Shown here in pieces: positions 24,546 to 50,059 of a stretch of 64,000 nucleotides of DNA. The number at the start of each line of letters is the position of its first letter. Within the stretch, counting starts at the first letter, position 1. The DNA is from Bacilli bacterium (GTDB lineage: Bacteria > Bacillota_I > Bacilli_A > ML615J-28 > CAG-698): assembly GCA_050174575.1 (NCBI GenBank), contig JBFXJT010000003.1, positions 1,689-65,688 of the forward strand. The letters are read 5' to 3'. A program made the position numbers and the translations under genes. The notes below the pieces were generated by a model that was not told where the DNA came from, did not search any database, and was given only the letters and a program-made list of their open reading frames with translations.

Positions 24546-24645
24546 TCATTTTTTATAAAAATAAAATGTTCTTGTTTATTAAGGGCTGTTATGATAAAAT
24601 TAAACTACAATAATTTGTTATGATGAGAGAAAAGTGGTGATAACA

Positions 24646-28191: not shown

Positions 28192-28210
28192 TGAACCCAT
28201 CACTCTTTTT
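28183..28210 (+). terminator. Terminator after the P-type ATPase
   Basis: AGAGTGATG-aaccc-ATCACTCT is followed by TTTTTTG. Confidence 0.5.
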
Positions 28211-28281
28211 TGTTTCATTTTTTTATTGAAAAAACGTCCACTTTCAGGTATAATTGTTATTAGATTGAAAGGATAATCGTT

Positions 28282-29111: not shown

Positions 29112-29130
29112 AATAGAAAGCTAGATTTAT

Positions 29131-29943: not shown

Positions 29944-30030
29944 AGGCATTTGTTAGAATAAAAAAAACGGACAATCAATATAGGATACCATCATTTAACA
30001 GATATATCTTAAATTTATTGTCCTTTTTTG

Positions 30031-31500: not shown

Positions 31501-31569
31501 AAGCTCCTTTTTGTTCATATTGTAACACAGGCAATTTAAAAAGAGAATAAGAATATTTTTAAAAATCAA

Positions 31570-31598
31570 TTGACTAGACATTTAGTTGGTGCTATAAT
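31570..31598 (+). promoter_or_regulatory. Consensus sigma-A promoter (TTGACT-17-TATAAT) with an operator-like TTGACTAGACA element over the -35
   Basis: The -35 and -10 boxes are read directly. The identical 11-mer TTGACTAGACA recurs at the promoter at 50031. Confidence 0.5.
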
Positions 31599-31609
31599 CA
31601 AAGGCGTGA

Positions 31610-31623
31610 TGTAAACGTTATCA
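31610..31623 (+). promoter_or_regulatory. Catabolite-responsive element (cre, CcpA site) just downstream of the -10
   Basis: TGTAAACGTTATCA matches the TGWAANCGNTNWCA consensus at every constrained position. It lies within a larger 8-5-8 inverted repeat AAACGTTA-tcagt-TAACGTTT (31613-31633). Confidence 0.5.
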
Positions 31624-31681
31624 GTTAACGTTTTCCGTCTACTATAGCAGTTTATCAAACTGCAAAGAAAAGGAGAAAAAG

Positions 31682-33229: not shown

Positions 33230-33250
33230 TCCGCATTCGGAGGTAAATTA

Positions 33251-34805: not shown

Positions 34806-34807
34806 TT

Positions 34808-35674
34808 ATGCTTGAGTCAAGAAGCGATAAAATATTCAGCATTATTGTATATATCATTTTATCCATTTTTGGATTATCAATTATTTTGCCGTTTTTCAAT
34901 TTATTAGCGACATCCCTTTCCGATCAAGTAGCTGTTTCTAACGGTTCAGTTTCATTTTGGCCAAAAAACTTCACATTTAGTGCTTACCAATTTGTTGTGC
35001 AAAACGATCAATTTTGGAATGGATTAAAAACAACGGTCTTTGTAACATTTGTTGGAACGGCATTAGCGATGGTTGTAACAACACTTGTTGCCTATCCGCT
35101 AAGCCTTCCCAAATTTCGAGCTCGTAAAATTTTTCTAGTTATCTTTATTATTGTTATGCTTTTTAATGGAGGACTAATTCCCACATATTTACTTATTAAT
35201 CAAATCGGATTACGTAATAATCGGTGGGCGCTAATCTTGCCATCCCTCATTTCTACATACAATATGTTACTTGTGAAAAACTATTTTGAAACATTGCCAG
35301 AATCATTGTATGAGTCCGCTAAAATTGATGGGGCAACCGAATTTCAAATCTTTTTGAAAATCACGTTACCTTTATCACTACCAACACTGGCAACTGTTGC
35401 TTTGTTTTATGCCGTTGGCTTTTGGAACGCTTATGTTAGTGGTATGTTGTATATATCAACACCGAGCAAAATGCCACTGCAAACATATTTACAAACGCTT
35501 CTCAATATGGCGTATATACCGGCACACGAACTATCGCCAGAAGCAGCTGAAAGTTTGTCGACGGAATCGATTAGAGCAGCAACAATTTTTTCAGCAACAG
35601 TCCCTATTTTGATTCTTTATCCTTTCTTACAAAAATATTTTGTGAAAGGGTTAGTATTGGGGTCGGACAAATAA
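34808..35674 (+). CDS. Sugar ABC transporter permease, LplC-like (CUT1)
   Basis: EAA-loop 'ESAKIDGATEFQIFLKITLP' with 6 TM helices. Confidence 0.8.
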   Translation: MLESRSDKIFSIIVYIILSIFGLSIILPFFNLLATSLSDQVAVSNGSVSFWPKNFTFSAYQFVVQNDQFWNGLKTTVFVTFVGTALAMVVTTLVAYPLSLPKFRARKIFLVIFIIVMLFNGGLIPTYLLINQIGLRNNRWALILPSLISTYNMLLVKNYFETLPESLYESAKIDGATEFQIFLKITLPLSLPTLATVALFYAVGFWNAYVSGMLYISTPSKMPLQTYLQTLLNMAYIPAHELSPEAAESLSTESIRAATIFSATVPILILYPFLQKYFVKGLVLGSDK

Positions 35675-36096
35675 TGAAAGACCGTTTTAAAATTTTTATC
35701 TTAAGATCCTGGGTAATTGGGATGGTTGTCGTTGTGGTTTATTTCATGATGAGTTTGCAACATATTTTTATTGGACTTATTTTAGGAATTATCAATACCT
35801 TTTTGGTTGATTTATTAAGTTTAACTATCAACAAAGGTAATCAGGCTGCTTTTCCTACAGGATGGAAATTGTTTTTTAAAACCATTTTCAATATTGCTAT
35901 TGCCATCATCATTAGTTTAATTATTCGCTTAATCGATTTGCAACTATTAAAAAACAACCTTATTACTATGCCAATTGAAACATTTCGCTTTATTGCTTAT
36001 TACCAAATTATTTATTATGGATCGTTATTCGTATATAACAAAATAAAAAGATTAATTGAGAGGAACAAAAATGAAACGATTATTAAAAAGCCTTAA
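35674..36096 (+). CDS. Small membrane protein of unknown function
   Basis: 3-4 TM helices. It overlaps neighbouring genes in an operon-like arrangement. Confidence 0.35.
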   Translation: MKDRFKIFILRSWVIGMVVVVVYFMMSLQHIFIGLILGIINTFLVDLLSLTINKGNQAAFPTGWKLFFKTIFNIAIAIIISLIIRLIDLQLLKNNLITMPIETFRFIAYYQIIYYGSLFVYNKIKRLIERNKNETIIKKP

Positions 36097-36766
36097 AACT
36101 AAACCGATGACACTTGTCGTCAGTTTGCCAGAAAACACTTACGAAATGGCAAAAGCTGCTTGGGAAGCAGGCGCAGATGCCATTAAAGTGCACATCAATT
36201 TATTTCACAACGCTAGTTTAATCAAATTTGGAACGATTGAAGAGCAACGACCTGTTTTAGAAAAAATATTGCACGACTCTCCGGTTCCTGTTGGTGTCGT
36301 AGCTGGCGAAAATACAAAAGTTAGTGAAGGGGTCATCGAAGAATTAGTTCGAATGGGATTCGATTTTATATCTTTGTATGGTCATCATATGCCTGTATCG
36401 TTATGCAATCGCCAAGACGTATCAAACTTATTTGCAATTGATTATAGTTATTCAGTTGAAGAAGTAAAAACAATTACTAATTCATTCATTGCAGAAATAT
36501 TGGAGTTATCAATTCTTCCTCATGAAGAATATGGTTCTCGTCTTAATGCCCGAGATTTAAGTCGTTATTTAGCTTTTTCACAAGTATCTAATATTCCAAC
36601 ACTTTTACCAACTCAAAGATTGATTTATCCGAGCGATGTTCAAGCAATTGCTAATTGTGGCGTCAAAGCAATCATGATTGGAGCAATTGTTTTTGGTCAC
36701 GATCTTCATCAAATGGTTGAACAAATAAAGTTATTTAAACAAGCTATAAATGAATTAAAGCAGTAA
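36071..36766 (+). CDS. Hypothetical cytoplasmic protein, possibly a TIM-barrel (alpha/beta) enzyme
   Basis: Alternating beta-alpha pattern with 'AWEAGADAIKVH' and a 'VKAIMIGAIVFG' phosphate-binding-like C-terminal motif. The family is not recognised with confidence. Confidence 0.35.
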   Translation: MKRLLKSLKTKPMTLVVSLPENTYEMAKAAWEAGADAIKVHINLFHNASLIKFGTIEEQRPVLEKILHDSPVPVGVVAGENTKVSEGVIEELVRMGFDFISLYGHHMPVSLCNRQDVSNLFAIDYSYSVEEVKTITNSFIAEILELSILPHEEYGSRLNARDLSRYLAFSQVSNIPTLLPTQRLIYPSDVQAIANCGVKAIMIGAIVFGHDLHQMVEQIKLFKQAINELKQ

Positions 36767-36776
36767 GGAGTAATTT

Positions 36777-37736
36777 ATGTCACTAGCGATTCAGGCCGTT
36801 CCGATATATGATAGTAAAGCGTTTGATATACGTCGCTATATCCATCCTCCAATATATGATGGAAAAATCGATCAAGAAAAACTTCCAATTGCCCCTCCAG
36901 CATGTTTTTTAGGAGCATGGTATCGTAAAGTTTTTTCATCATTTGACAAATGGGTTGGTATTGAAGGGGTGATTGAATTAGGAGAATTTACTCCCGATGA
37001 AGCACGTTTCAATTTAGATGGTAAAGGCCGCTATATGGATGTTCCAAGTATTTATATGGGTGGAAAAAGCGCTTTTGAAAGTGATGCCGGCTTAGGTTTA
37101 GGACCAACATATTTAACTTCTGATTTTTCTTTTGAATTAACAATGGCCAGTCCTAAAATAGCTTATCGTCCTTTTTGGCGTTATATTTATCAAGATGCAA
37201 CTGATATCAACGGTAATGTCAATCGACGTGAAATCAATTCTTGGAATGTTACTGAACCTAGAAGCGTTATTTATAGTTACTTTCCTGGTGATGTTTTAAG
37301 AATGAGTGTTTATAGTCCTATTCCTGATTACTTACAATTACACATCGAAGTATTAAAAACGACGACGATTCCTAAATATGTGCAAATTAGAGAACAATAT
37401 CATTTAGAAAATAATCGTCCCGATGATTTTTTCAGCCCAATCTTTTTATCAAAAGGTCATGGGAAAAATGATGCAGAATTTAAAAGAGTGAATGCTATTG
37501 ATCAATTTGGGAATGAAGGATTTCATGCAAAACCAACCAAAGCTGAAGTTTCAAAAGCTACTTGGCACGAAACATATTTATATCGGATGATTAATAACGA
37601 AGTTAGACGTATTCCATTTTCGAAAGCTAGGCAAACAAGTATGATTTGCCCAAACAATGATGCCGTTTCTGTTATCGACATTGATCCAGAAATTGGCAGC
37701 GAAGCAATAATCATTCATCCGGGGAAAATAAAATAG
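36777..37736 (+). CDS. Unknown-family cytoplasmic protein, 319 aa, paralog A
   Basis: ~45-50% identical to the 44071-45030 product. Shared blocks are 'FLGAWYRKVFSSFD.W.G.EGVI.LGEFTPD..RFNLDGKGRYMD.PSIYMGGKSA', 'AYRPFWRYIY..ATD..GNV.R.EINSWNV' and 'RQTSMICPN.DA'. It has no signal peptide and an AAGGAG RBS. Confidence 0.5.
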   Translation: MSLAIQAVPIYDSKAFDIRRYIHPPIYDGKIDQEKLPIAPPACFLGAWYRKVFSSFDKWVGIEGVIELGEFTPDEARFNLDGKGRYMDVPSIYMGGKSAFESDAGLGLGPTYLTSDFSFELTMASPKIAYRPFWRYIYQDATDINGNVNRREINSWNVTEPRSVIYSYFPGDVLRMSVYSPIPDYLQLHIEVLKTTTIPKYVQIREQYHLENNRPDDFFSPIFLSKGHGKNDAEFKRVNAIDQFGNEGFHAKPTKAEVSKATWHETYLYRMINNEVRRIPFSKARQTSMICPNNDAVSVIDIDPEIGSEAIIIHPGKIK

Positions 37737-37745
37737 GGGGTAAAG

Positions 37746-39449
37746 ATGAATTTTAATGAAACTACTTATATTTGTAAAAACGTATATTCCATTGATGGAA
37801 TATTAAAGTTTGATGGGAAAATCCCCGTTGATATCAATGGGCGTACAGTCACTTATAAAATGTATAGTAATTTCCATGAATTGCTTGATAAAAACATTTT
37901 TGAAGTGAACAATCATGGTCTTTTGTTTTACGTTCATTACGATGAAAATATTAAAGAGGATGGCTATTATTTAAACATTACTACTGAAAATAAAATCATC
38001 ATTAAAGCATCGAATATACGAGGAATCCGTTATGCCTTTAAAATGCTTAACGATTTAGCAAGAAAATCCAATGATGGGTTTTTATTACCCATTGTTTTAA
38101 TCGAAGACGAACCTTCATTCCCTATAAGAGGAATCGTCGAAGGTTATTATGGAGAACCTTGGACGTTAGATGAGCATTTAGATATGGCTGATTTTATGGA
38201 TCAATTTCGTTTAAATGCTTTTATGTACGCGCCAAAAACTGATCAATATCATCGTGAGAAATGGTTTGAATTATATCCGGATGATCTTTTTCAACAATTG
38301 TTAACAATAAAAAACAAGTTAGCAAGCAAGGATATCGATTTTTATTATTGTATCTCACCAGGTCATGCAAAAAATCCAGAAGATGGATTTCAATATGCGA
38401 AGGATGCTGATTTTGACCGTTTATTTATAAAACTTAAACAAGTTATTGATGTTGGTGTCAATCATTTCGGATTATTTTTTGATGATATTGATTATCAATT
38501 AAGTGGAGATAACTTACAACTTTTTAAACGCCCAGGAATTGCCCATGCCCATATTTGCAATAAAGTAATGGACTTTTTAAGAGAGAATGTAATTGACCCA
38601 GTTCTTGTTATGTGTCCAACAGAATATCATCAAATTGGCGCAACAGAATACCGTAATGATTTAAAACAAAATTTAGATGAAGATATTGTTGTTTTCTGGA
38701 CGGGAGACCGCGTTTGTGCAGAAGCTATTACAGAAAATGATGCTAAACAAACAGCAGAAGCTTATGAAAAACCAATTTTTATTTGGGATAATTTCCCTGT
38801 CAGCGATTTTACATACGGCGTGAGAGAATTTATTGCGCCAATTAAAAACAGAGCTGCCAATTTAAGTGATTATGCTTTGGGTTATTTAATTAATCCAAGC
38901 TTGCATTATCATATTTCAAAAATCGGAATGATTACTATGGCTCACTATGCATGGAATTGTCAACACTATGATTATGTGAAATCATATTCCATCGCATTAA
39001 ACAGCGTCAGCCATGAATTTGCAACTTTAGGGGAAGCATACTTCGAATATAATTATCCGAACGTTCTTTCTCATGGGAATTTAGCCTTAGAAAAGCAAAT
39101 GGTAGAAAATCATGATTATTCTGCAATTTTAGCTTATATGGAAAAAGTATCAAAGAGCGCAACGCAACTACTTACCATCAATGAGCCGATTATTGATGAA
39201 CTAAAACCATGGTTATTAAGAGTTATTGATGAAGAAAAAATCATCAAACAAATCATTGATGGAGAACTAAACAAAAAAACATTACTTACTTTCTTGCAAA
39301 ATATCAAATTTTCAGGTGGAAAAATCCTTGATTATTTGATTGCTGACAAAAAATTATTGACCGATGAAGAGTTTACTAATTTGCTTTCTAAACGACGAGG
39401 CGGAGAATGGTATCGTGTGTTTGAATACAAACGCTGGCCAAAGCACTAG
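37746..39449 (+). CDS. GH84-family beta-N-acetylglucosaminidase (O-GlcNAcase/NagJ-like), cytoplasmic
   Basis: 'FPIRGIVEGYYGEPWTLDEHLDMADFMDQFRLNAFMYAPKTDQYHREKW' matches the GH84 catalytic-domain N-terminus, and the catalytic Asp-Asp sits in 'FGLFFDDIDY'. It has no signal peptide. Confidence 0.8.
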   Translation: MNFNETTYICKNVYSIDGILKFDGKIPVDINGRTVTYKMYSNFHELLDKNIFEVNNHGLLFYVHYDENIKEDGYYLNITTENKIIIKASNIRGIRYAFKMLNDLARKSNDGFLLPIVLIEDEPSFPIRGIVEGYYGEPWTLDEHLDMADFMDQFRLNAFMYAPKTDQYHREKWFELYPDDLFQQLLTIKNKLASKDIDFYYCISPGHAKNPEDGFQYAKDADFDRLFIKLKQVIDVGVNHFGLFFDDIDYQLSGDNLQLFKRPGIAHAHICNKVMDFLRENVIDPVLVMCPTEYHQIGATEYRNDLKQNLDEDIVVFWTGDRVCAEAITENDAKQTAEAYEKPIFIWDNFPVSDFTYGVREFIAPIKNRAANLSDYALGYLINPSLHYHISKIGMITMAHYAWNCQHYDYVKSYSIALNSVSHEFATLGEAYFEYNYPNVLSHGNLALEKQMVENHDYSAILAYMEKVSKSATQLLTINEPIIDELKPWLLRVIDEEKIIKQIIDGELNKKTLLTFLQNIKFSGGKILDYLIADKKLLTDEEFTNLLSKRRGGEWYRVFEYKRWPKH

Positions 39450-39461
39450 GAAGGATTAGTG

Positions 39462-40127
39462 ATGATTGAACAATTAAAAAACAAATTGATAGTTTCATGT
39501 CAAGCAAAAGATAATGAACCTTTAAAAGACCCCCAAATTATGGCGAAAATGGCTGCTGCAGCATTACTTGGTGGTGCTGGTGGCATTAGGGCGGCAGGAG
39601 TTAACGATATTAAAGCAATTAAAGCCATGAATGAAACCATTGTTATTGGACTAATTAAAAAAGACTATTCGGATTCTGAAGTATACATTACACCTACTAA
39701 ACAAGAAGTTTTCCAATTGTTGGAAAGTGGTTGTGAGATTATTGCTTTAGATGGTACGAATCGCAATCGGCCCAACAAAGAAACATTATTCAGTTTAATT
39801 TCATTAATTCATGCCAATAACCGTTTAGCTATGGCTGATATTTCCACATTTGAAGAAGCTTTATTAGCCCAACAAGCTGGAGCAGATATGGTTTCCACAA
39901 CGCTTTCTGGTTATACAAGTTATACAAAGAAACGCCAGGGACCCGATATAAAGCTTGTCGGACAATGTGTTTCAAAACTGCAAATTCCTGTGCTTGCGGA
40001 AGGAAGGATTAGAAATCCTCAAGATTTAAAGAAAGTTTTACGAAAAAAACCGTTTGCTGTTGTTATTGGAACAGCAATAACACGTCCAACCGAAATTACT
40101 AAAACTTTCGTAGGGTGTTTTAAATGA
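39462..40127 (+). CDS. nanE: N-acetylmannosamine-6-phosphate 2-epimerase
   Basis: Collinear with E. coli NanE in 'LIVSCQA', 'IIALDGTNRNRP', 'TTLSGYT', 'AEGRIRNPQ' and 'VVIGTAITRP'. Confidence 0.85.
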   Translation: MIEQLKNKLIVSCQAKDNEPLKDPQIMAKMAAAALLGGAGGIRAAGVNDIKAIKAMNETIVIGLIKKDYSDSEVYITPTKQEVFQLLESGCEIIALDGTNRNRPNKETLFSLISLIHANNRLAMADISTFEEALLAQQAGADMVSTTLSGYTSYTKKRQGPDIKLVGQCVSKLQIPVLAEGRIRNPQDLKKVLRKKPFAVVIGTAITRPTEITKTFVGCFK

Positions 40128-41767
40128 ACAGAAAAACGATCAACGAATCTTATAAAGATATTCTAAGCAATTGGAATAATGAATTTTCCCATAATTATCC
40201 GATTACGGAACGATTATTCAAAGAAAAAATTCTTGATTCGCTAGAAATTGTTGCCGATGGTTCATACTCCTTATATGACAAAGAGGAATATATTGGCAGT
40301 GTTATTTTAAAATTTAATCATATTAATGATAAAAAATTGCAAGACTACGCTTATATTTCGTTTATTTTTGTGGCTTCAAAATTTCGAAATCGAGGATACG
40401 GTTCTGTTTTGATAAGTGATGCGCTTAGAATATGTATTGAATATGAAAAAAGCATGTTATATGTAGGTGGTGATAACGATTGCTTGTTTTCCGGTGTTTT
40501 TTTAGATAATAATGAATTTGTTCACCAATTTTTTAAAGAACATCGTTTTAATATTGCTTACAAAAATTATAATTTGATTTGTAAAGAACCACCAAAAACA
40601 ACAAACGACGAATACAAATATACGACGTTAAAGACTGAAAAAGAAAAAAAGGACTTATTAAAGCAAGTTCATAAATTATTTCCTTCAAGATGGCATTATG
40701 ATTTGCAAAGCTGTGAACCAAAAGCTTTTTTTGTTGCGAAAGAAAATGATAATATTGTTGGGGTTGTTCGTTTAAATACGCCTAAATCAAATCACATCGC
40801 CAACAGTGTTAATACTTATCCGTTATACAAAATGCTTGGAGGAATTGGCCCCGTTGCCATCTTCCCCGAAAAAAAGGGTTCGGAATTAGCCAACAACATC
40901 GTCAAACAAGCAGTCAACTATTTGTTCAACTTGGGATGCTCCGAAGTTATTGTCGATTGGACCAATTTTATTGATTACTTTAAAGCTTCGGGATTTTCGG
41001 ATATCTCTAATTCCTATGTTCTCTATGAATTGCGTGTTCAAGAAAAAATCAAAGGGCCAAAAACACATATTTATCAGGTTATCGAAAATGATTTACGACA
41101 TGACATTTTAGAAGGTAAATATAAACATGGAGATATTATTCCTAGTGAAGTGGAATTAGCTTCTACATATAAAGTAACGAGGATGACAGTTAGACAAGCT
41201 ATCAACAACTTGTTAATCGATGGATTTATATATCGTCATAAGGGACGCGGCACGTTTGTAACATATAATAAAAGAAATATTGATTTTGAAGACAAACCTT
41301 ATTTTTCATTTAACAATGATAAGGCAAATAATAATGAATTACGAACGACTGTTTTAATTTTTGAAATCAGGGCAGCAGATGAATTACTCGCTCTGCGATT
41401 ACAACTAAAAACAGGTGATCCGCTTTATTATGTTGAACGGGTTGTTTCCTATGATAATTTACCATTATTGTTTGAAAGATTATATTTACCAGCAAACATG
41501 TATGCCAATTTAAATGAAAAAATATTTGAAAAATCATTTTATCAATATGCGAAAGAGCAGTTGCACTGGAATTTAGTTTCATGCAACATCAATATAGAAG
41601 CAAGAGGTCTAAGTGGACGGGCTGCAGAAGTCTTACAATTATCCCAAGGCGATCCAGCGCTTTATTGCAGTAGTGTAGCTCACTTGGTCAATGGTAGAGC
41701 AATCTTGTATACTAGAACTTTTTTCAATGCGGAACAAGTAAATTTTTCCCATCAATTTTCTTTTTAA
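40124..41767 (+). CDS. Fusion protein: two N-terminal GNAT acetyltransferase-like domains plus a C-terminal GntR/HutC-family regulator (HTH + UTRA)
   Basis: GNAT motif A 'FIFVASKFRNRGYGSVLISDAL' is at ~aa 80-100, and a second GNAT-like region spans ~aa 190-300. The GntR HTH 'SEVELASTYKVTRMTVRQAINNLLIDGFIYRHKGRGTFV' is at ~aa 330-370, and a UTRA-type C-terminal domain follows. Confidence 0.7.
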   Translation: MNRKTINESYKDILSNWNNEFSHNYPITERLFKEKILDSLEIVADGSYSLYDKEEYIGSVILKFNHINDKKLQDYAYISFIFVASKFRNRGYGSVLISDALRICIEYEKSMLYVGGDNDCLFSGVFLDNNEFVHQFFKEHRFNIAYKNYNLICKEPPKTTNDEYKYTTLKTEKEKKDLLKQVHKLFPSRWHYDLQSCEPKAFFVAKENDNIVGVVRLNTPKSNHIANSVNTYPLYKMLGGIGPVAIFPEKKGSELANNIVKQAVNYLFNLGCSEVIVDWTNFIDYFKASGFSDISNSYVLYELRVQEKIKGPKTHIYQVIENDLRHDILEGKYKHGDIIPSEVELASTYKVTRMTVRQAINNLLIDGFIYRHKGRGTFVTYNKRNIDFEDKPYFSFNNDKANNNELRTTVLIFEIRAADELLALRLQLKTGDPLYYVERVVSYDNLPLLFERLYLPANMYANLNEKIFEKSFYQYAKEQLHWNLVSCNINIEARGLSGRAAEVLQLSQGDPALYCSSVAHLVNGRAILYTRTFFNAEQVNFSHQFSF

Positions 41768-41770
41768 TAT

Positions 41771-41795
41771 CAGTGCCATTTTTTGGCACTTTTTA
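41771..41795 (+). terminator. Terminator after the GNAT-GntR gene
   Basis: AGTGCCA-tttttt-GGCACT is followed by TTTTAATTT. Confidence 0.5.
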
Positions 41796-41797
41796 AT

Positions 41798-41809
41798 TTG
41801 TATATACAA
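41798..41809. promoter_or_regulatory. Perfect 12-bp palindrome TTGTATATACAA (GntR-family GT-N-TA-N-AC operator type) in the promoter region of the GHL10 gene
   Basis: Read directly. It lies ~17-28 nt upstream of a TATAAT at 41826-41831. Confidence 0.4.
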
Positions 41810-41854: not shown

Positions 41855-44074
41855 ATGAGGAAAATTCTTATGGCTTTTTTATTAACATCACTCGCAGCAA
41901 ACATTTTTGTTAATGCTGAACAAACAACGATTGTCGACGATTATTTAAATGGAAAAGACATCGTTCGTTACGAAAACTACTTAGTTTATTATAGTTTTAA
42001 TTCATCCTTGAAATCTCCTGCAAATCAATGGGGGTATGAAATTGCAGTGAGCCCGGACCATTTTGTAATTGATTGCGATACCAATGCAACCATGGAAGAA
42101 GGAGGTTACATTATTTCTGGTCATGGAACGAAAAAAACAATCCTTTTGGATGTCAATGTTGGCGATCAAGTAAATATCGATTGGGGAACTAAAAAAATTA
42201 TCATTACTAGAGATCCCCTAAAAAGTCCGCAGTTTTTAGCACACCGCTTTAAACAAACGGCAATTGATTATTACAATCAAGCTACAAAATACGGTTATGC
42301 TTTTGATTCTATCCTTGTTAATCAACTGATTGATCTGATTGACAAGGACTGTGATTTAATCGATGAGATTGCTATCAAAAGCGAGCCAACAAGTGATGAT
42401 TTAAATCAAGTAAAATTGTTAGCCGAAAACATCGAGACGCGGGCTTTAACAATCAAATTTCTTACTTCTTATTCTTCAAAAACGGAGATTCGAGCTTTGT
42501 GGCATCGGCCAAATGCAGCAGGGTTAAAAGAGGATAATTTAGACAATTTAAAAGCTTTCGTACAAGAAGTTAAAGATTTAGGGTTTAATACAATTTTTGT
42601 AGAAACATTGTGGAATGGATATGTTAGCTATCGATCAGATATCATCAGCACACACCCACAAGTAGCTGGTTTTACATATGGTGAAGTTTACCAAAACGAT
42701 TATATCGCAGCATTAATTGGCGAAAGCAAAAAACTAGGGATTGATGTTCATGCTTGGTGTCATACCTTCAATGCTGGAAATGTTACTTATAAAGCGGCAT
42801 CAATCAAAGATGAATGGTTACTAGAAAATTACCAAGGCTTAACATTGCACCCTAACACTTACGGTGGGAGTTATTATTTGGATCCATCAAATCCTGAAGT
42901 ATTAACTTACTTAACCAGTGTCTTTTTAGAAATGGTTGAGAAGTATGACTTTGCAGGTATCCAATTAGATTACATTCGTTATTATGATAACAACTATTCA
43001 CAAACGCCCATTAGAGATAGTGGTTACGGATTGCTTCCGGAAAATCGCTTTAAAGAAGCTTATGAATTAACCGGTGATGTCCGTGAACTCATCAAACAGG
43101 AAACAAATTTAGAAAAATGGAACAAATGGCGACAAGACAATGTCACTAACGCCGTCAAAACATTTTCACAAGCTTTACGAAATAAAAATCCCGAAATTGT
43201 CATCTCTGCTGATGTTGTTGCCAATATTACTTATGCAAAAGCAACATACATGCAAGATTGGAAAACATGGGTTGATAAAGGGTATATTGATTTACTTTGC
43301 CCAATGATTTATACAGGAAGTGCCGAAGCAATTAAAGAAGATTCTTTAGCTATTATGAACCAAATAAAAAATTTAGCCTTTTTATCTTCAGGTATTGCAC
43401 CGATTTATTATGGATATTCTGTAGAAATTAACCACGATGAATTTGAAGCAACGAAAAGTGCTGATGGCTTAGCCTTTTTTGCAAGTCAAAATATTGTTGG
43501 GTTACAAGAAGTTTCACAATCAATAAAAACAGGGGTATTTCGATTAGAAGCTACATCCCCACTTCAGAAAACGTCAATTGTTATTGAAAATGGATTGCAA
43601 CATTTAAAAGAATACGTAACTATGGCAATGGTAAATGAACCGCAACAACAAATGTTCCTTGACCATATAAACACGATGAGTGCCATGGATTGCAATAATC
43701 CATCTGATTATCAAAGCCTAATGGAAAAAATGGATTTTGTAAGAACAATATCTCCATATGTTATTTCCAATGACATTAGAGAAATTTTCAACTTGGAATT
43801 GGAACAATTAATTCATGTATTAGACGTCAAGATTAGCCGGGAAATGATTACTTTAGGTTTTTATGACCCCAGTGATGGAAGTCGACCAGACCCTGATTTA
43901 TTTGATTATCCTGTTGATGAACCCGAACCTGAACCAGAACCAGAACCTGAGCCAGAGCCTGAACCAGAACCCACTGACGAAAAAGGATGCTTGAATTTTT
44001 TTACAGCACCTTCAATAATATTCTTCGGATTGATACTTATGTTATTTAGAAAAAAAGAAAGAGGTAATATATGA
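41855..44074 (+). CDS. Secreted glycoside-hydrolase-like protein (GHL10/YngK-YddW-like TIM barrel) with a (Pro-Glu)n linker and a C-terminal membrane anchor
   Basis: Carries a signal peptide. The central region 'GFNTIFVETLWNGYVSYRS...' with 'DVHAWCHTFN' and 'GIQLDYIRY' resembles the DUF187/GHL10 family, though this assignment is unverified. The C-terminus is 'PEPEPEPEPEPEPEPTDEKGCLNFFTAPSIIFFGLILMLFRKKERGNI'. Confidence 0.6.
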   Translation: MRKILMAFLLTSLAANIFVNAEQTTIVDDYLNGKDIVRYENYLVYYSFNSSLKSPANQWGYEIAVSPDHFVIDCDTNATMEEGGYIISGHGTKKTILLDVNVGDQVNIDWGTKKIIITRDPLKSPQFLAHRFKQTAIDYYNQATKYGYAFDSILVNQLIDLIDKDCDLIDEIAIKSEPTSDDLNQVKLLAENIETRALTIKFLTSYSSKTEIRALWHRPNAAGLKEDNLDNLKAFVQEVKDLGFNTIFVETLWNGYVSYRSDIISTHPQVAGFTYGEVYQNDYIAALIGESKKLGIDVHAWCHTFNAGNVTYKAASIKDEWLLENYQGLTLHPNTYGGSYYLDPSNPEVLTYLTSVFLEMVEKYDFAGIQLDYIRYYDNNYSQTPIRDSGYGLLPENRFKEAYELTGDVRELIKQETNLEKWNKWRQDNVTNAVKTFSQALRNKNPEIVISADVVANITYAKATYMQDWKTWVDKGYIDLLCPMIYTGSAEAIKEDSLAIMNQIKNLAFLSSGIAPIYYGYSVEINHDEFEATKSADGLAFFASQNIVGLQEVSQSIKTGVFRLEATSPLQKTSIVIENGLQHLKEYVTMAMVNEPQQQMFLDHINTMSAMDCNNPSDYQSLMEKMDFVRTISPYVISNDIREIFNLELEQLIHVLDVKISREMITLGFYDPSDGSRPDPDLFDYPVDEPEPEPEPEPEPEPEPEPTDEKGCLNFFTAPSIIFFGLILMLFRKKERGNI
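43918..43974 (+). repeat. In-frame hexanucleotide microsatellite (GAR-CCN)x9 encoding the (Glu-Pro)9 linker
   Basis: 'gaacccgaacctgaaccagaaccagaacctgagccagagcctgaaccagaaccc' is read directly. Confidence 0.8.
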
Positions 44075-45030
44075 GTTTAGCAATTAATGTTATTCCAACA
44101 TTGGATAGTCAATTTATAGACAGCCGAAAATTTCAAAACGCAAAAATATTTTATGGAAATATTGAAAACGAGGTAAAACCAATTTTGGCTCCAAAATGTT
44201 TTCTTGGAGCGTGGTATCGCAAAGTTTTTTCATCCTTTGATTATTGGTTAGGGATGGAAGGGGTTATAAAATTAGGTGAATTTACCCCTGATAAGCTTCG
44301 CTTCAACCTTGATGGTAAAGGTCGTTATATGGATAACCCATCAATTTATATGGGAGGGAAAAGCGCCAAAGAAACTGATGCTGGCTTAAACCTCAATTTA
44401 AGTTATCTATCAGATGATACTAAAGACGACTTAGTTCTTTCTTCTCCAAAGCTAGCTTATCGACCATTTTGGCGTTATATTTACAATACTGCGACTGATG
44501 TATCAGGGAATGTTGAACGCCATGAAATTAATTCTTGGAACGTTCATAATCCTAGACATTTAGGAAATTATTATTTTCCCGGCGATGTTATCAAAATGAG
44601 CGTTTATAGTCCGATGAAAGACTACTTACAACTACGTATTGATGTTATTGAACCGACAACAAACCCAAAATATGTGAAAATAAGAAATGGATACAATTTA
44701 GAAAATAATCTTCCCACTTCATTTTTAAGTCCTTTATTTTTTTCTAAAGGACATGGTTATGAAAAAGCCGAATTTAAACGTGTAAATTCCATTGATCAAT
44801 ATGGTAACGAAGGCTTTGTAGCACAAAATACCAATGCCGAAGTATCGGAAGCTGTTTGGCAAGAGGTCTATTTGTACAAAGAAATCGACAAAACAATTTA
44901 CAAAATTCCTTTCTTACAAAGTCGCCAGACATCAATGATTTGCCCAAACACAGATGCTATTACTGTGAAAAATCATCCAGTTGATCCCACTGGAGAATCA
45001 GTTATCATTCATCCAGGAAAAAGGAATTAA
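44071..45030 (+). CDS. Unknown-family cytoplasmic protein, 319 aa, paralog B
   Basis: Paralog of the 36777-37736 product with the same conserved blocks. Its start overlaps the upstream stop as ATGA. Confidence 0.5.
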   Translation: MSLAINVIPTLDSQFIDSRKFQNAKIFYGNIENEVKPILAPKCFLGAWYRKVFSSFDYWLGMEGVIKLGEFTPDKLRFNLDGKGRYMDNPSIYMGGKSAKETDAGLNLNLSYLSDDTKDDLVLSSPKLAYRPFWRYIYNTATDVSGNVERHEINSWNVHNPRHLGNYYFPGDVIKMSVYSPMKDYLQLRIDVIEPTTNPKYVKIRNGYNLENNLPTSFLSPLFFSKGHGYEKAEFKRVNSIDQYGNEGFVAQNTNAEVSEAVWQEVYLYKEIDKTIYKIPFLQSRQTSMICPNTDAITVKNHPVDPTGESVIIHPGKRN

Positions 45031-45042
45031 AAGGCCGAACTT

Positions 45043-46545
45043 ATGAAAAAAATAGTTTATATTCCCCTTGATGAACGACCTTGCAACTATGATTTTCCTA
45101 ACGAGATTTTTCAAAATTCCCAAACAAATATTGTCATTCCCCCAATCAATATTATGGGAGACAAAAAAATGCCGGCTAACCATAATGCTTTAGAAGCTTT
45201 TCTCTTAAAAGAGACAAAGGATGCCGACGGTTTAGTCATTTCTTTAGACACACTAATTTATGGTGGGATTGTTCCTTCTCGTTTACATTATTTAGATGTT
45301 AGCGTATTAAAAGAGCGATTATTATTTATTGAGCAGATTAAAAAACAAACGCCAAAATTACCTATTTTTGCTTTCCAATTAATCATGCGTTGTCCCCAAA
45401 ATAATTCAAGCGATGAAGAACCAGAATATTACAAGCATTCTGGAAGAAGCATTTATTTAAATGGTTATTATCAAAACAAAAAACAATTAGGCATTATTAC
45501 CGAAGAAGAAGAAAAACATTGGAAAACATTGTCAATTGAAGATACCTATTTAAATGATTTTTTACAAAGACGATTTACAAATAAACAAATTAATATTTTT
45601 GCTCTCAATTTGCTTGAGAAAGAGATGATTGACTTTTTGGTTGTTCCTCAAGATGATGCGAGCGAATATGGGTATACAGCGATAGATCAAGTAGATATTA
45701 GAGAAATCATCCGTCAAAAGCAACTGATGTTAAAAGCATATATGTATCCAGGAGCCGATGAAGTCGGATGTATCTTATTGAGTCGTATGATTAACCATTT
45801 AGAAAATAAAAAGCCTGCTTTTTTTGTTAAGTATCCATCACCAACAACACCAATGGTGATTCCTTGTTTAGAGGATCGCTATGTCGATGTAACCATTAAA
45901 TATCATATTGCTTGTACGGGTGGAATTACTGTTCCTTCTTTAGCAGATGCAGACATTGTTTTACTAGCTTTCCTTGGAGCAACTAAAATGATTTCTCATC
46001 CAAACAATGAACCAAGTTTGGATGTTGATGTCATGTGTAACTTTACGGAAATGATGGAGTTTGCGGATTATGCAATCAAAAAGGGATATCCCGTTGCTAT
46101 TGGTGATTTAGTTTACCTTAATGGTGGTTCGCTAGATATCTTACATTTTTTAGAAGCAAAGCAACTAACAATGAAAGTTGCATCGTATGCTGGATGGAAT
46201 ACATCAAGTAATTCTTTAGGAACAGCCATTGCTCAAGCGATTCAGTTTTGGTACCAAGGAAATACTTTGTCACATCAAGCTTTCTTGATTAAACGCTATG
46301 TGGAAGACGTGGGCTATTGTGGAATTGTTCGAGCTGATGTTACAAAAGAACTTGCAAAACATCAAATGGATTATTTTAATGTTAATGAAAAAGATGGTAT
46401 TGCTGCCAAACTCGTCAATCATGGATTGCAAAAATTCATCCATGAACATTTAACAAGTATCAGTCACCAATTTACCGTTACAAAAGTAAACTTACCTTGG
46501 AAGCGGATGTTTGAAGTCGCTTTTGAAGTTCATTTGAAGGATTGA
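45043..46545 (+). CDS. Uncharacterised cytoplasmic protein, paralog B of the ~500 aa DUF4127-like family
   Basis: Carries the N-terminal 'KIVYIPLDERPCNYDFP', 'DTLIYGGIVPSRLH', 'QLIMRCPQ', 'FLVVPQDD', 'YMYPGADE' and 'AGWNTSSNSLGTAIAQA' motifs, all shared with paralog C. Confidence 0.5.
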   Translation: MKKIVYIPLDERPCNYDFPNEIFQNSQTNIVIPPINIMGDKKMPANHNALEAFLLKETKDADGLVISLDTLIYGGIVPSRLHYLDVSVLKERLLFIEQIKKQTPKLPIFAFQLIMRCPQNNSSDEEPEYYKHSGRSIYLNGYYQNKKQLGIITEEEEKHWKTLSIEDTYLNDFLQRRFTNKQINIFALNLLEKEMIDFLVVPQDDASEYGYTAIDQVDIREIIRQKQLMLKAYMYPGADEVGCILLSRMINHLENKKPAFFVKYPSPTTPMVIPCLEDRYVDVTIKYHIACTGGITVPSLADADIVLLAFLGATKMISHPNNEPSLDVDVMCNFTEMMEFADYAIKKGYPVAIGDLVYLNGGSLDILHFLEAKQLTMKVASYAGWNTSSNSLGTAIAQAIQFWYQGNTLSHQAFLIKRYVEDVGYCGIVRADVTKELAKHQMDYFNVNEKDGIAAKLVNHGLQKFIHEHLTSISHQFTVTKVNLPWKRMFEVAFEVHLKD

Positions 46546-48490: not shown

Positions 48491-50012
48491 AATTGTATAT
48501 ATTCCCCTTGATGAACGCCCTTGTAATTATCAGTTTCCTACAAAAATATTTAACCAAAAAGATGTTGAAATAATTACTCCACCCCAATCAATAATGGGAT
48601 ACAAAAAGCAACCGACTGATATAGATCAATTAAGCGATTGGTTAATGACGAACACAAAACAAGCTTATGGATTAGTTGTTGCCCTTGATACGCTGCTTTA
48701 TGGAGGAATTGTTCCTTCTAGATTGCATCAGCTTCCCCTTAAAATCCTTTTAAAAAGATTACAAATTTTAAAAAAACTGAAAAAACAAAATCCTGAACTT
48801 CAAATTTTTGGGTTTCAGTTAATCATGCGTTGTCCTCAATATAATTCAGCCGATGAAGAACCTGAATATTTTAAAAACTATGGAAAAAGCATCCACATGT
48901 TGGGATACTATTCTCACATGAAAGAGCTAGGAATTCTTCCCAAAAAAGATCAGGAAAAACTAAACAATATTTTTGTCCCACAACCATTTTTAGATGATTT
49001 TGTCAATCGAAGAAAAGTGAATCAGCAAATGAATATCGCAGCCTTAAAACTAGTTTCAGAAGGCATTATATCATTTTTCACTTTCCCTCAAGATGACTCA
49101 TCAAAATTTGGTTGGACAGCAAAAGATCAAATTGTTATTAGAAAGTCTATAAAAAAACGTCATTTAATGCATCTTGTTTATATGTATCCTGGAGCGGATG
49201 AAGCGGGGAGTGTCCTTGTTAGTCGCATGGTCTGTCAATTTAAACAAGTAGTTCCAAAAGTATTAATAAGATATCCCGGTCCAAGTTGCGCAAAAATCAT
49301 TCCCTCAATCGAAGACCGTTATTTAGATACTATGGTTAAATATCACGTTTTAGCATGTGGAGGAATTATCGTCGATTCTTTGAAAGAATGTGATGCTGTT
49401 GCTTTTATTAATGCACCGGCAGATTATATGCGTTCATCATTTTCTAGAGAGGCTCCTAAACATGGATTAGAAGTTTTAAGAAACATGGTTGAGGCAATGG
49501 AGTTTTTGGATTATGCCCGTCACCAAAACAAAGTCATAATCATCGGTGATATTACTTATGGAAACGGTAGCGATCTTGAAATCTTCCATTTACTATCACA
49601 AAAACAAATGACATTTGATTTGGCAGGTTTTGGAGGATGGAATACAGCCTCAAATGCGATTGGTCAGGCTATTGCCATGGGATTTTCATTCTTAATAAAC
49701 GGTTGCACAGAAAGCCATTTGAACTTTTTAGTAAGTCGTTATATTGAGGATATTTGTTATTGTGGTTATGTTCGTCAAATCGTTATGAAAAATTTTTTAC
49801 CAAAGCATCCACAACTTGATTATTTTAATGTAATGGAAAAAAATGGACTTGTTGCTCAAGAAGTTGCAAGACAATTAAACTTATTCATCAAAAAGAACAT
49901 GCCTCAATTGTGGGACCATGGAAAAATCATCAAAGTTGAATTACCGTGGAAAAGGATGTACGAAATCGATTTAGAAGCTATTTATCAAGAGGATAATAAA
50001 AAAAGCATGTAA
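48483..50012 (+). CDS. Uncharacterised cytoplasmic protein, paralog C of the ~500 aa DUF4127-like family
   Basis: 'VKIVYIPLDERPCNYQFP' and 'GGWNTASNAIGQAIAMG' are present. It is collinear with paralog B (~45-50% identity), and its start overlaps the upstream stop. Confidence 0.5.
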   Translation: MVKIVYIPLDERPCNYQFPTKIFNQKDVEIITPPQSIMGYKKQPTDIDQLSDWLMTNTKQAYGLVVALDTLLYGGIVPSRLHQLPLKILLKRLQILKKLKKQNPELQIFGFQLIMRCPQYNSADEEPEYFKNYGKSIHMLGYYSHMKELGILPKKDQEKLNNIFVPQPFLDDFVNRRKVNQQMNIAALKLVSEGIISFFTFPQDDSSKFGWTAKDQIVIRKSIKKRHLMHLVYMYPGADEAGSVLVSRMVCQFKQVVPKVLIRYPGPSCAKIIPSIEDRYLDTMVKYHVLACGGIIVDSLKECDAVAFINAPADYMRSSFSREAPKHGLEVLRNMVEAMEFLDYARHQNKVIIIGDITYGNGSDLEIFHLLSQKQMTFDLAGFGGWNTASNAIGQAIAMGFSFLINGCTESHLNFLVSRYIEDICYCGYVRQIVMKNFLPKHPQLDYFNVMEKNGLVAQEVARQLNLFIKKNMPQLWDHGKIIKVELPWKRMYEIDLEAIYQEDNKKSM

Positions 50013-50030
50013 ACCTTTACAAACTCTTCT

Positions 50031-50059
50031 TGACTAGACAAGTAATTAAAGATATAATA
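50031..50059 (+). promoter_or_regulatory. Consensus sigma-A promoter (TTGACT-17-TATAAT) carrying the same TTGACTAGACA element as the 31570 promoter
   Basis: Read directly. It is followed by an AAGGAGG RBS and the ATG at 50089. Confidence 0.5.

What the first reader, a model, noticed from the sequence alone, without database searches (positions are those of the whole stretch)
40124..41767. GNAT-GNAT-GntR(HutC/UTRA) fusion as the sole regulator of the island
HutC-subfamily GntR regulators such as NagR/DasR normally consist only of an N-terminal HTH and a C-terminal UTRA effector domain, and they sense GlcNAc-6-P/GlcN-6-P. Here the HTH and UTRA module begins at ~aa 320 and is preceded by ~300 aa containing two acetyltransferase-like GNAT folds. 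One has a clear acetyl-CoA motif A, 'RNRGYGSV'. A regulator that could both bind an amino-sugar effector and N-acetylate a substrate is unusual. The enzymatic GNAT might generate or modify the effector, for example GlcN-6-P to GlcNAc-6-P, or acetylate a protein partner. The gene overlaps nanE as ATGA, so it is co-transcribed with the catabolic genes.
Basis: partly seen in the sequence, partly recalled or inferred. Interest (0 to 1): 0.55.

Follow-up and report, generated by a model that had tools for sequence, protein, structure and literature searches.

The report
Amino-sugar acetyltransferase fused to NagR-like repressor
One gene in this uncultured Bacilli genome joins a glucosamine-acetyltransferase-like enzyme to a NagR-type sugar repressor; the fusion is real, rare and arose once from two overlapping neighbour genes, so it links an enzyme and a regulator that probably already worked together.

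Summary
ORF 40124-41767 (547 aa) is a single reading frame encoding two GNAT lobes, a GntR winged helix and a UTRA domain, and it overlaps nanE by ATGA.

It is not an assembly error. Uninterrupted orthologs (58-100% identity) occur in assemblies from at least six separate samples and in five species-level MAGs.

The N-terminal 305 aa are specifically a GlmA-type tandem GNAT (Clostridium glucosamine/glucosaminide N-acetyltransferase; TM 0.84-0.88). The C-terminal half is closest to B. subtilis NagR/YvoA.

In related loci, and in four of the same genomes, the two halves are separate, adjacent, overlapping genes in the same nanE-GNAT-GntR order. Trees of both halves indicate one fusion event. Only one 50%-identity cluster among 1.84 billion representatives has this architecture.

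Three conserved dre-like palindromes (TTGWNTAKACAA) lie over the -35 boxes of the three island promoters. This predicts an autoregulated repressor.

The lobe that is catalytic in GlmA carries substitutions found only in the fused proteins (motif-A Gly to Glu/Asp; GlmA Tyr297 to Phe). Catalysis is therefore uncertain, and a sensor or trigger-enzyme role is plausible.

Verdict: a new variant of a known kind, of moderate interest.

The parts
40124..41767 (+). Fusion gene, 547 aa: GlmA-type tandem GNAT + GntR wHTH + UTRA
40124..40603 (+). GNAT lobe 1 (aa 1-160). Canonical acetyl-CoA motif A, RNRGYG, at aa 88-93 (nt 40385-40402). This lobe is non-catalytic in GlmA, RmNag and VipF.
   Evidence: PMC4680927; PMC10936415
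40604..41038 (+). GNAT lobe 2 (aa 161-305), equivalent to the catalytic lobe of GlmA. Altered motif A K251-G-S-E254-L-A256 (nt 40874-40891). D278-W279-T280 (nt 40955-40963) corresponds to GlmA D287-W-T. F286 (nt 40979-40981) corresponds to GlmA Y297.
41039..41071 (+). Interdomain linker (aa 306-316). Variable in sequence and low in pLDDT. It derives from the former GNAT tail plus the GntR head of the overlapping gene pair.
41072..41260 (+). GntR winged helix-turn-helix (aa 317-379). R353 and G374 correspond to NagR R48 and G69. V343 replaces NagR R38.
41333..41740 (+). UTRA effector domain (aa 404-539). The phosphate cradle is retained: R439, S471, Y473, E451, F396.
39459..40127 (+). nanE (ManNAc-6-P 2-epimerase). 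Its stop codon overlaps the fusion gene's start as ATGA.
41772..41797 (+). Intrinsic terminator (AGTGCCA-loop-TGGCACT followed by a T run) that ends operon 1 directly after the regulator gene
31570..31581 (+). Candidate operator O1, TTGACTAGACAT, over the -35 box of promoter P1 (17 nt to an extended -10). It predicts autoregulation of the operon that ends with the fusion gene.
41798..41809 (+). Candidate operator O2, the perfect palindrome TTGTATATACAA, covering the -35 box (TATACA) of promoter P2 upstream of the GHL10 gene. It is identical in six loci.
50030..50041 (+). Candidate operator O3, TTGACTAGACAA, over the -35 box of promoter P3 upstream of the 1794-aa surface protein gene
31609..31623 (+). 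cre-like box ATGTAAACGTTATCA. It fits WTGNAANCGNWNNCW, lies downstream of the P1 -10 box, and is conserved in L008 and L002.
50008..50021 (+). Weaker cre-like box TGTAAACCTTTACA upstream of P3, conserved in L002

Best explanation
This is a genuine, single-origin gene fusion. An amino-sugar N-acetyltransferase gene of the GlmA tandem-GNAT type merged with the NagR/HutC-type repressor gene that overlapped its 3' end.

Shown: the architecture, its conservation, its origin from an adjacent overlapping pair, purifying selection on all four domains, and three conserved dre-like palindromes over the -35 boxes of the island's three promoters.

Inferred for the C-terminal half: it dimerises through UTRA, binds these operators and occludes the promoters. 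This includes the promoter of its own operon, so the gene is negatively autoregulated. A phosphorylated amino sugar (GlcNAc-6-P, GlcN-6-P or ManNAc-6-P, the substrate/product pair of the neighbouring NanE) binds the retained phosphate cradle of the UTRA pocket and releases the repressor.

Inferred with less confidence for the N-terminal module: it still binds acetyl-CoA in lobe 1 and an amino sugar at the conserved DWT pocket of lobe 2. Catalysis has been weakened or re-specified, because the motif-A Gly is Glu/Asp, Arg is Lys, and the GlmA-Tyr297 position is Phe in all fused copies only. The module would then act mainly as a second, trigger-enzyme-like input (acetyl-CoA and/or unphosphorylated amino-sugar status) on the repressor, to which it is tethered by a flexible 10-12 aa linker.

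My confidence by layer: real single-origin fusion about 0.95; NagR-like autoregulated repressor acting at these operators about 0.8; sensor or attenuated-enzyme role of the GNAT module about 0.45.
For: Real fusion: uninterrupted 547-548 aa orthologs at 58-100% identity come from NCBI, ENA, JGI and Logan assemblies and from five GTDB species genomes.

GlmA type: a full-length phmmer match to 5KF1/5KGH (E 8e-10); Foldseek TM 0.84-0.88 and rmsd 2.3-3.1 A to GlmA, and rmsd 2.4 A to RmNag, against TM about 0.6 for other tandem GNATs; model pLDDT 93-98 over the module.

NagR-like: YvoA E 7.7e-24; R48, G69, R133, S165, Y167, E145 and F89 are conserved.

Origin: separate GNAT (306-312 aa) and GntR (241-249 aa) genes are adjacent, overlapping by 4-8 bp in several loci and within 1-4 bp in the others, in L001, L005, L006, L016-L019 and L022, with nanE upstream in L005-L007. 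These neighbouring genes are the closest relatives of both halves (GntR 54-58% against 49% for the best unlinked regulator). The fused copies are monophyletic in both trees. Linker length equals the old tail plus the old head.

Selection: dN is 0.04-0.44 with dS saturated. Identity is similar for lobe 1, lobe 2 and UTRA, and only the linker is free to vary.

Operators: TTGWNTAKACA occurs only at the three promoters in 64 kb (0.84 hits expected), and at the orthologous positions in L002, L003, L008 and L010 while the spacers diverge. These are the best + strand promoter matches in the island. The operator differs from the NagR site GTGGTCTAGACCAC at position +/-5, which matches the loss of the G-5-reading Arg38.

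Lobe-2 divergence: of 39 columns conserved at 80% or more in 37 standalone homologs, the fused proteins differ completely at five. Three of these are in the lobe-2 acetyl-CoA loop and one is the Tyr297 position. The pattern holds in 10 fused and 9 further unfused copies, including same-genome paralogs.
Against: There is no biochemical evidence for any step. Motif-A position 4 is not invariant in standalone homologs (K, N or Q in five of them). From my memory of Dopkins et al. 2016, the GlmA Y297F and D287N variants keep activity, so the substitutions do not prove loss of catalysis. Island A has no other GlmA-like gene, which argues that the fused module still supplies the enzyme. The relative orientation of the GNAT module and the regulator is not predicted with confidence (pTM 0.63; linker pLDDT below 50), so no allosteric path is shown. 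UTRA residues R135, R211, E222 and Y228 differ from NagR, so the effector may not be GlcNAc-6-P. Two of the three operators share TTGACT with the -35 consensus, so part of their conservation could reflect promoter function alone.
Confidence: 0.55

Rival explanations
1. Plain bifunctional protein with no cross-talk. The N-terminal module is a fully active amino-sugar N-acetyltransferase and the C-terminal half is an ordinary NagR-like repressor. The fusion is a near-neutral consequence of losing a stop codon in an overlapping, translationally coupled gene pair, and it merely fixes 1:1 stoichiometry.
For: Unfused pairs overlap by 4-8 bp, so a single small mutation is enough to fuse them. The linker is flexible and variable. 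Both lobes are under purifying selection and the DWT pocket is intact. Island A has no other GlmA-like gene. The fusion is confined to one narrow clade, as expected for a neutral event.
Against: The fused lineage carries conserved substitutions, unique to the fusion, at positions otherwise conserved across the family in the catalytic lobe's acetyl-CoA loop and acceptor Tyr. This is not expected if the enzyme simply carried on unchanged. A repressor is normally needed in far lower copy number than a catabolic enzyme.
Confidence: 0.3
2. The GNAT module is a protein (lysine) acetyltransferase. It acetylates the regulator itself or a partner protein and so modulates DNA binding post-translationally.
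For: GNATs include protein acetyltransferases. The fungal Ngs1, a GH3 + GNAT protein, couples GlcNAc sensing to promoter histone acetylation (PMC5063960).
Against: The module is specifically of the GlmA/RmNag small-molecule type by sequence and fold, it keeps the sugar-binding DWT motif, and nothing links this subfamily to protein substrates.
Confidence: 0.05
3. Assembly or sequencing artefact. Two separate genes (GNAT and GntR) are joined by a frameshift error in this MAG.
For: Homologous halves do exist as separate overlapping genes in other loci. The same window contains one apparently broken gene, the solute-binding protein split at 32377/32393.
Against: The same uninterrupted ORF is found in assemblies from at least six separate samples across different projects, at 58-100% amino-acid identity. 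The linker is in frame in all of them. The fused clade is monophyletic with its own conserved substitutions.
Confidence: 0.01

Closest known systems
NagR (YvoA) of Bacillus subtilis and DasR of Streptomyces coelicolor (GntR family, HutC subfamily)
   Same: wHTH + UTRA fold. These are the best solved-structure sequence matches. Arg48, Gly69 and the phosphate cradle (R133, S165, Y167) plus E145 and F89 are conserved. The predicted operators resemble the dre palindrome (9 of 12 positions match TGGTCTAGACCA) and overlap promoters of amino-sugar genes.
   Different: A 305-aa tandem GNAT is attached in front of the wHTH. Arg38 is lost, with the matching G-5 to T change in the operator. R135, R211, E222 and Y228 of the sugar pocket are replaced. 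No NCBIfam equivalog cut-off is reached (best 123.7 bits against 275).
[quoted passage not shown]
   Same: A tandem GNAT of the same length and fold (TM 0.84-0.88). The lobe-1 acetyl-CoA motif, the D-W-T motif (GlmA D287) and many family-conserved residues are retained. The genomic context is amino-sugar catabolism.
   Different: Only about 23% identity. The lobe-2 motif A is K-G-S-E-L-A instead of R-K-Q-G-L-G. Tyr297 is Phe. The module is fused to a DNA-binding regulator. Close GlmA relatives sit with murQ, a BadF-type kinase and nagA, not with a regulator.
Trigger enzymes and bifunctional enzyme-repressors (BirA, PutA, NadR) and the MocR subfamily of GntR regulators (own knowledge)
   Same: One polypeptide combines an enzyme fold with a DNA-binding domain that controls genes of the same pathway.
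   Different: Here a complete two-domain HutC regulator, with its own effector domain, is retained, and the enzyme module is added at the N-terminus. In MocR the enzyme-fold domain replaces the effector domain and lies C-terminal to the wHTH. No cross-talk is demonstrated here.
Ngs1 of Candida albicans (GH3-like GlcNAc sensor + GNAT; PMC5063960)
   Same: A GNAT of the amino-sugar world is recruited into GlcNAc-dependent transcriptional control.
   Different: It is eukaryotic. It acts through histone acetylation and is recruited by a separate DNA-binding protein (Rep1). It is not a DNA-binding fusion.

Membership tests
GntR family, HutC subfamily (NagR/DasR-like) | N-terminal GntR-type winged helix-turn-helix (PF00392) | tested here: met
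   aa 317-379, E 8e-20. The helices and wing are modelled.
GntR family, HutC subfamily (NagR/DasR-like) | C-terminal UTRA / chorismate-lyase-fold effector domain (PF07702) | tested here: met
   aa 404-539, E 3.6e-27. Foldseek hits to YydK, YvoA, PhnF and DasR.
GntR family, HutC subfamily (NagR/DasR-like) | Two-domain protein of about 240 aa with the wHTH at the N-terminus | tested here: not met
   The wHTH starts at aa 317, preceded by a 305-aa tandem GNAT.
GntR family, HutC subfamily (NagR/DasR-like) | DNA-reading residues of NagR (Arg38, Arg48, Gly69) | tested here: inconclusive
   Arg48 and Gly69 are conserved. Arg38 is Val or Ser. This is consistent with an operator that has T instead of G at -5.
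GntR family, HutC subfamily (NagR/DasR-like) | Palindromic GT-N-TA-N-AC-type operator at regulated promoters | tested here: met
   In silico only: three sites matching TTGWNTAKACA(A), conserved in position across orthologous loci. Binding was not tested.
NagR orthologs (GlcNAc-6-P / GlcN-6-P sensing) | Effector-pocket residues T90, R133, R135, S165, Y167, F89, E145, Y228, E222 | tested here: inconclusive
   R133, S165, Y167, F89 and E145 are kept. T90 is N, R135 is V, E222 is L, Y228 is F and R211 is S. A phospho-sugar effector is likely, but its identity is open.
NagR orthologs (GlcNAc-6-P / GlcN-6-P sensing) | Score above a curated equivalog cut-off | tested here: not met
   the best NCBIfam hits score 123.7 (cut-off 275) and 123.4 (cut-off 156.8).
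GlmA-type tandem GNAT (glucosamine/glucosaminide N-acetyltransferase) | Two GNAT lobes in one chain, homologous to GlmA over the full length | tested here: met
   query aa 10-287 aligns to GlmA 9-298, E 8e-10. TM 0.84-0.88; 22.6% identity.
GlmA-type tandem GNAT (glucosamine/glucosaminide N-acetyltransferase) | Acetyl-CoA motif A (R/Q-x-x-G-x-G/A) in lobe 1 | tested here: met
   R88-N-R-G-Y-G93, conserved in all fused and unfused homologs.
GlmA-type tandem GNAT (glucosamine/glucosaminide N-acetyltransferase) | Acetyl-CoA motif A in the catalytic lobe 2 | tested here: not met
   K251-G-S-E254-L-A256. Position 4 is acidic only in fused proteins.
GlmA-type tandem GNAT (glucosamine/glucosaminide N-acetyltransferase) | Acceptor-site residues Asp287 and Tyr297 of GlmA | tested here: inconclusive
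   The Asp287 equivalent, D278, is kept within an invariant DWT motif. The Tyr297 equivalent is Phe286 in all fused copies and Tyr in all 37 standalone homologs.
GlmA-type tandem GNAT (glucosamine/glucosaminide N-acetyltransferase) | Acetyl-CoA-dependent N-acetylation of GlcN or glucosaminides | not testable with these tools
   This needs an enzyme assay.
Trigger enzymes / bifunctional enzyme-repressors | Enzyme fold and DNA-binding domain in one polypeptide that controls the same pathway | tested here: met
   and the operators at the island promoters.
Trigger enzymes / bifunctional enzyme-repressors | Substrate or cofactor occupancy of the enzyme module changes DNA binding | not testable with these tools
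   This needs EMSA or reporter assays with and without acetyl-CoA or amino sugar.
MocR subfamily of GntR regulators | wHTH followed by a PLP-dependent aminotransferase-fold domain | tested here: not met
   There is no aminotransferase domain. MocR-type models match only the wHTH.

The most novel reading that the evidence does not exclude
The GlmA-derived module has become a ligand-sensing pseudoenzyme, or a slow trigger enzyme. It reports acetyl-CoA and/or unphosphorylated amino-sugar status to a NagR-type repressor, giving a two-input switch. The fusion would then be a Rosetta stone for a previously unrecognised physical enzyme-regulator partnership that also operates in the unfused, translationally coupled GNAT/GntR pairs of related sugar-utilisation islands.
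Probability: 0.3. Interest if true: 0.7.

Novelty: new variant of a known kind. Interest (0 to 1): 0.5.

Why it matters
HutC/NagR-type repressors are textbook one-input switches for amino-sugar catabolism, and no member with an N-terminal enzyme module has been described in the literature I could search. This fusion has unfused paralogs in the same genomes for comparison. It is therefore a natural experiment on how a metabolic enzyme is recruited into a transcription factor. It predicts a functional, possibly physical, link between GlmA-like acetyltransferases and their neighbouring regulators. It also offers a compact candidate sensor that might integrate acetyl-CoA and amino-sugar signals. 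The island it controls (three DUF4127 paralogs, a NAGPA-like phosphodiester glycosidase, GHL10, GH84, NanE and two unknown 319-aa paralogs) is itself uncharacterised. The predicted operators give a handle for defining its regulon.

Tried and rejected
(1) I first misread the genome scan as showing two fused paralogs per genome. The ORF check showed that the second copies are unfused adjacent genes bridged by tblastn, and I corrected this.

(2) Searching the perfect palindrome with two mismatches was uninformative: 9 hits against 9.2 expected. The degenerate pattern TTGWNTAKACA was specific.

(3) dN/dS could not be quantified because dS is saturated between all available orthologs. Only the qualitative statement of strong constraint is used.

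(4) The AlphaFold-DB fold search, intended to look for the same architecture elsewhere, was not available.

(5) The primary GlmA papers (Reith & Mayer 2011; Dopkins et al. 2016) are not held. Statements about GlmA kinetics and about which lobe is catalytic rest on my memory, on the PDB entry titles (D287N and Y297F mutants), and on secondary papers.

(6) Literature searches for a GNAT-GntR/UTRA fusion, for DUF4127, and for trigger enzymes with GNAT found nothing relevant. PA3458 turned out to be a MarR regulator next to a GNAT gene, not fused to one.

(7) NCBIfam gave no assignment for the unannotated island ORFs.

(8) I considered that asymmetric divergence (GNAT 34-43% against GntR 57-58% between fused and unfused copies) shows post-fusion acceleration. 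I rejected this as evidence, because GNATs of unfused pairs are equally divergent from each other.

(9) Other long hits in the exhaustive search (P0041, P0152, P0073) are tandem GntR-UTRA duplications or carry an unknown N-terminal extension. They are not GNAT fusions.
Full report
OBSERVATION. Pfam finds Acetyltransf_1 (aa 32-117, E 1.8e-15, two stretches), a weaker second GNAT signal (Acetyltransf_9, aa 187-267), GntR (317-379, 8e-20) and UTRA (404-539, 3.6e-27). The start codon overlaps the nanE stop as ATGA at 40124-40127. The same 4-bp overlap is present in the orthologous loci L002, L008 and L010. RNRGYG lies at aa 88-93.

IS THE FUSION REAL? Yes. Word-indexed and exhaustive protein searches found uninterrupted 547-548 aa orthologs at 100, 83, 74, 73 and 58% identity, from NCBI, ENA, JGI and Logan assemblies. 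A scan of one genome per species found the single ORF in five MAGs labelled Bacilli, Bacillales, 'Tenericutes' and, probably wrongly, Bacteroidales. Synonymous sites between orthologs are saturated while dN is only 0.04-0.44. Lobe 1, lobe 2 and UTRA have similar identities (0.57-0.83), and only the 10-aa linker (aa 306-316) is free to vary. An assembly frameshift is therefore excluded.

WHAT THE TWO HALVES ARE. The N-terminal 305 aa match the PDB entries 5KF1/5KGA/5KGH over their whole length (query 10-287 against chain 9-298, E about 1e-9). The PDB titles, and PMC10936415, identify these as GlmA, the glucosamine N-acetyltransferase of Clostridium acetobutylicum. An AlphaFold2 model built on a 119-sequence alignment has pLDDT 93-98 over this module. 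Its low-confidence regions are the two linkers, 308-313 and 382-402. Foldseek places GlmA first (TM 0.84-0.88, rmsd 2.3-3.1 A). The glucosamine N-acetyltransferase region of fungal RmNag follows (rmsd 2.4 A). Other tandem GNATs (VipF, MAB_4324, the clavulanate CBG protein) reach only TM about 0.6. Sequence identity to GlmA is about 23%, so the fold family is secure but substrate specificity is not.

The C-terminal half is closest to B. subtilis YvoA/NagR (E 7.7e-24). It reaches no NCBIfam equivalog cut-off. No solved chain spans both halves.

ORIGIN. The closest standalone relatives of the N-half are P0010 (45%) and P0006 (43%). Each is followed directly by a 241-aa GntR+UTRA gene whose start overlaps the GNAT stop by 4-8 bp, and in L005-L007 nanE lies directly upstream. 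That is the same nanE-GNAT-GntR order as in the window. Those neighbouring regulators are 54-58% identical to the C-half, closer than the best unlinked regulator among 1.84 billion representatives (P0011, 49%).

Four of the five genomes with the fusion also carry such an unfused pair in a second island (DUF5696, ABC transporter, aBig_2 protein, GxDLY/GDSL esterase, DUF4127, FAD oxidoreductase). The linkage persists at 36% GNAT identity in L022. Proteins closest to true GlmA instead sit with murQ-like, BadF-type kinase and nagA-like genes and no regulator.

NJ trees of both halves make the fused copies monophyletic and sister to, or nested among, the unfused pairs. This indicates one fusion event. 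The fused linker RVQEKIKGPKTH (12 aa) matches in length the old GNAT tail plus the old GntR head (9 + 4 aa), so loss of the stop codon in an overlapping pair is sufficient. In the exhaustive search, only one 50%-identity cluster has the full-length architecture.

REGULATORY TARGETS.
- TTGACTAGACAT at 31570
- TTGTATATACAA at 41798
- TTGACTAGACAA at 50030

The pattern TTGWNTAKACA occurs nowhere else in the 64-kb window (0.84 hits expected). In the loci of the 83, 74 and 58% orthologs it occurs only at the corresponding intergenic positions, while the flanking spacer sequence has diverged. These are also the three best + strand sigma-70-like matches in the island. In each case the element covers the -35 hexamer, which is the classical geometry of promoter occlusion.

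The strongest terminator in the region follows the regulator's stop codon at 41772-41797. The gene is therefore the last of the operon driven from the operator-bearing P1, which predicts negative autoregulation.

Compared with the NagR palindrome GTGGTCTAGACCAC (PMC4333415), the elements keep G-4 and C+4 but have T/A at +/-5. In parallel, Arg48 (which reads G-4) and Gly69 (the wing) are conserved, while Arg38 (which reads G-5) is Val or Ser. This concordance between protein and DNA supports the assignment, although binding is untested.

Conserved cre-like boxes at P1 (ATGTAAACGTTATCA, which fits WTGNAANCGNWNNCW) and, more weakly, at P3 suggest CcpA co-regulation. 'Sole regulator' is therefore true only of regulators encoded in the island. 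No other transcription-factor domain was found between 30 and 63 kb, but four ORFs there have no annotation.

EFFECTOR POCKET. Most of the NagR residues that bind the sugar phosphate (PMC4333415) are retained: R133, S165, Y167, F89, E145 and S88. T90 becomes N, T or S. R135 becomes V or T in most fused copies. R211, E222 and Y228 are S, L/V and F in both the fused and the unfused relatives. A phosphorylated sugar effector is therefore likely. Its identity (GlcNAc-6-P, GlcN-6-P or ManNAc-6-P) is open, and the association with NanE makes ManNAc-6-P and GlcNAc-6-P the obvious candidates. This is inference.

IS THE GNAT MODULE AN ENZYME? In characterised tandem GNATs only one lobe is catalytic. 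In GlmA, RmNag and VipF it is the C-terminal lobe, and the N-terminal lobe binds acetyl-CoA without catalysing transfer. This rests on PMC4680927, PMC10936415, and the fact that the GlmA active-site mutants D287N and Y297F lie in lobe 2.

I aligned 5 fused proteins, 36 standalone homologs and GlmA. Of 39 columns conserved at 80% or more in the standalone proteins, the fused proteins differ completely at five:
- G141R
- L244V
- R251K
- G254E/D
- Y286F

G245A and G256A are partial changes. R251, G254 and G256 are positions 1, 4 and 6 of the lobe-2 motif A, and Y286 is the GlmA Tyr297 position (Tyr in 37 of 37 standalone proteins). The same signature is present in all ten fused copies examined. 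It is absent from all unfused copies, including the paralogs in the same genomes. The altered residues are themselves conserved within the fused clade, so the site has changed rather than decayed.

Caveats apply. Position 4 is K, N or Q in five standalone proteins. The D-W-T motif (GlmA D287) is intact. From memory of Dopkins et al. 2016, Y297F and D287N affect substrate binding rather than chemistry. I therefore regard catalysis as uncertain. I favour, narrowly, a module that still binds acetyl-CoA (lobe 1) and an amino sugar (the DWT pocket), with weakened or re-specified turnover, acting as a second input on the repressor. The main rival is a fully active enzyme fused without functional consequence.

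COMPARISON WITH KNOWN SYSTEMS. The protein works like a NagR/DasR-type HutC repressor and contains a member of the GlmA tandem-GNAT fold family. It fails the defining two-domain architecture of the former, and two active-site features of the latter. Conceptually it resembles trigger enzymes and enzyme-repressors (BirA, PutA, NadR) and the MocR subfamily. It differs from MocR because a complete HutC regulator is retained and the enzyme is added at the N-terminus. Fungal Ngs1 (PMC5063960) is an analogy: a GNAT recruited to GlcNAc-dependent transcription, although through histone acetylation. Full-text searches found no description of a GNAT-GntR/UTRA fusion.

VERDICT. This is a real, single-origin and very rare fusion of a GlmA-type acetyltransferase with a NagR-like repressor, with a clear evolutionary origin, predicted operators and a testable question about the fate of the enzyme module. 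Novelty: a new variant of a known kind. Interest: 0.5.

Noticed in passing
window 36777-37736 and 44071-45030 (also 35674-36096 and 36056-36766): Two 319-aa paralogs (62% identity) have no Pfam or NCBIfam family. One sits in each of the two regulated operons, and both are conserved in all orthologous loci. Two further ORFs upstream also have no family.
   Followed up: partly
window 30031-31581(-), 45043-46545, 48483-50012, with 46547-48490, 41855-44074 and 37746-39449: The island combines three DUF4127 paralogs, a NAGPA-like phosphodiester glycosidase, a GHL10 protein, a GH84 N-acetylglucosaminidase and NanE. This looks like a catabolic locus for a polymer containing GlcNAc or ManNAc, possibly phosphodiester-linked. 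DUF4127 also occurs in the unfused 'island B', and no paper in the library mentions it.
   Followed up: partly
window 31682-32377 and 32393-33229: The solute-binding protein gene of the island's ABC transporter is split into two ORFs here. It is a single 505-514 aa ORF in L002 and L008. It is either a pseudogene or a local assembly error.
   Followed up: partly
window 31609-31623 and 50008-50021: Conserved cre-like boxes (ATGTAAACGTTATCA and TGTAAACCTTTACA) lie next to two of the three operator-bearing promoters. They suggest catabolite repression by CcpA on top of the local repressor.
   Followed up: partly
L010 1-16081 compared with window 24634-41767: The 74% ortholog locus has the same left flank (P-type ATPase, YccF, tRNA_edit, TMEM164) but lacks the divergent DUF4127 gene and the whole ABC transporter. 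The operator-bearing promoter there sits directly before the unknown ORFs. The island is therefore modular.
   Followed up: no
L001, L005, L016, L019, L022 (unfused pairs): The GNAT and GntR trees disagree among the unfused pairs. The regulators are close to each other while their partner GNATs are very divergent (for example L019 against L001). The cause could be fast GNAT evolution or partner exchange.
   Followed up: no
L011, L014, L017, L018: MAGs titled 'uncultured Bacteroidales bacterium' carry loci 58-74% identical in protein to those of Bacilli and 'Tenericutes' MAGs. These bins are probably mislabelled or chimeric.
   Followed up: no
window 41855-44074 (about aa 690-706) and 50089-55473: The GHL10 protein ends in a (Pro-Glu)n repeat followed by a hydrophobic anchor. 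The 1794-aa protein after P3 has Ig-like and weak GH85_C-like signals. Both are probably cell-surface enzymes of the island.
   Followed up: no
P0041, P0152, P0073: Other unusual HutC architectures exist in the database: tandem duplications of the whole GntR-UTRA unit (510 and 483 aa), and one regulator with an unassigned 140-aa N-terminal extension.
   Followed up: partly
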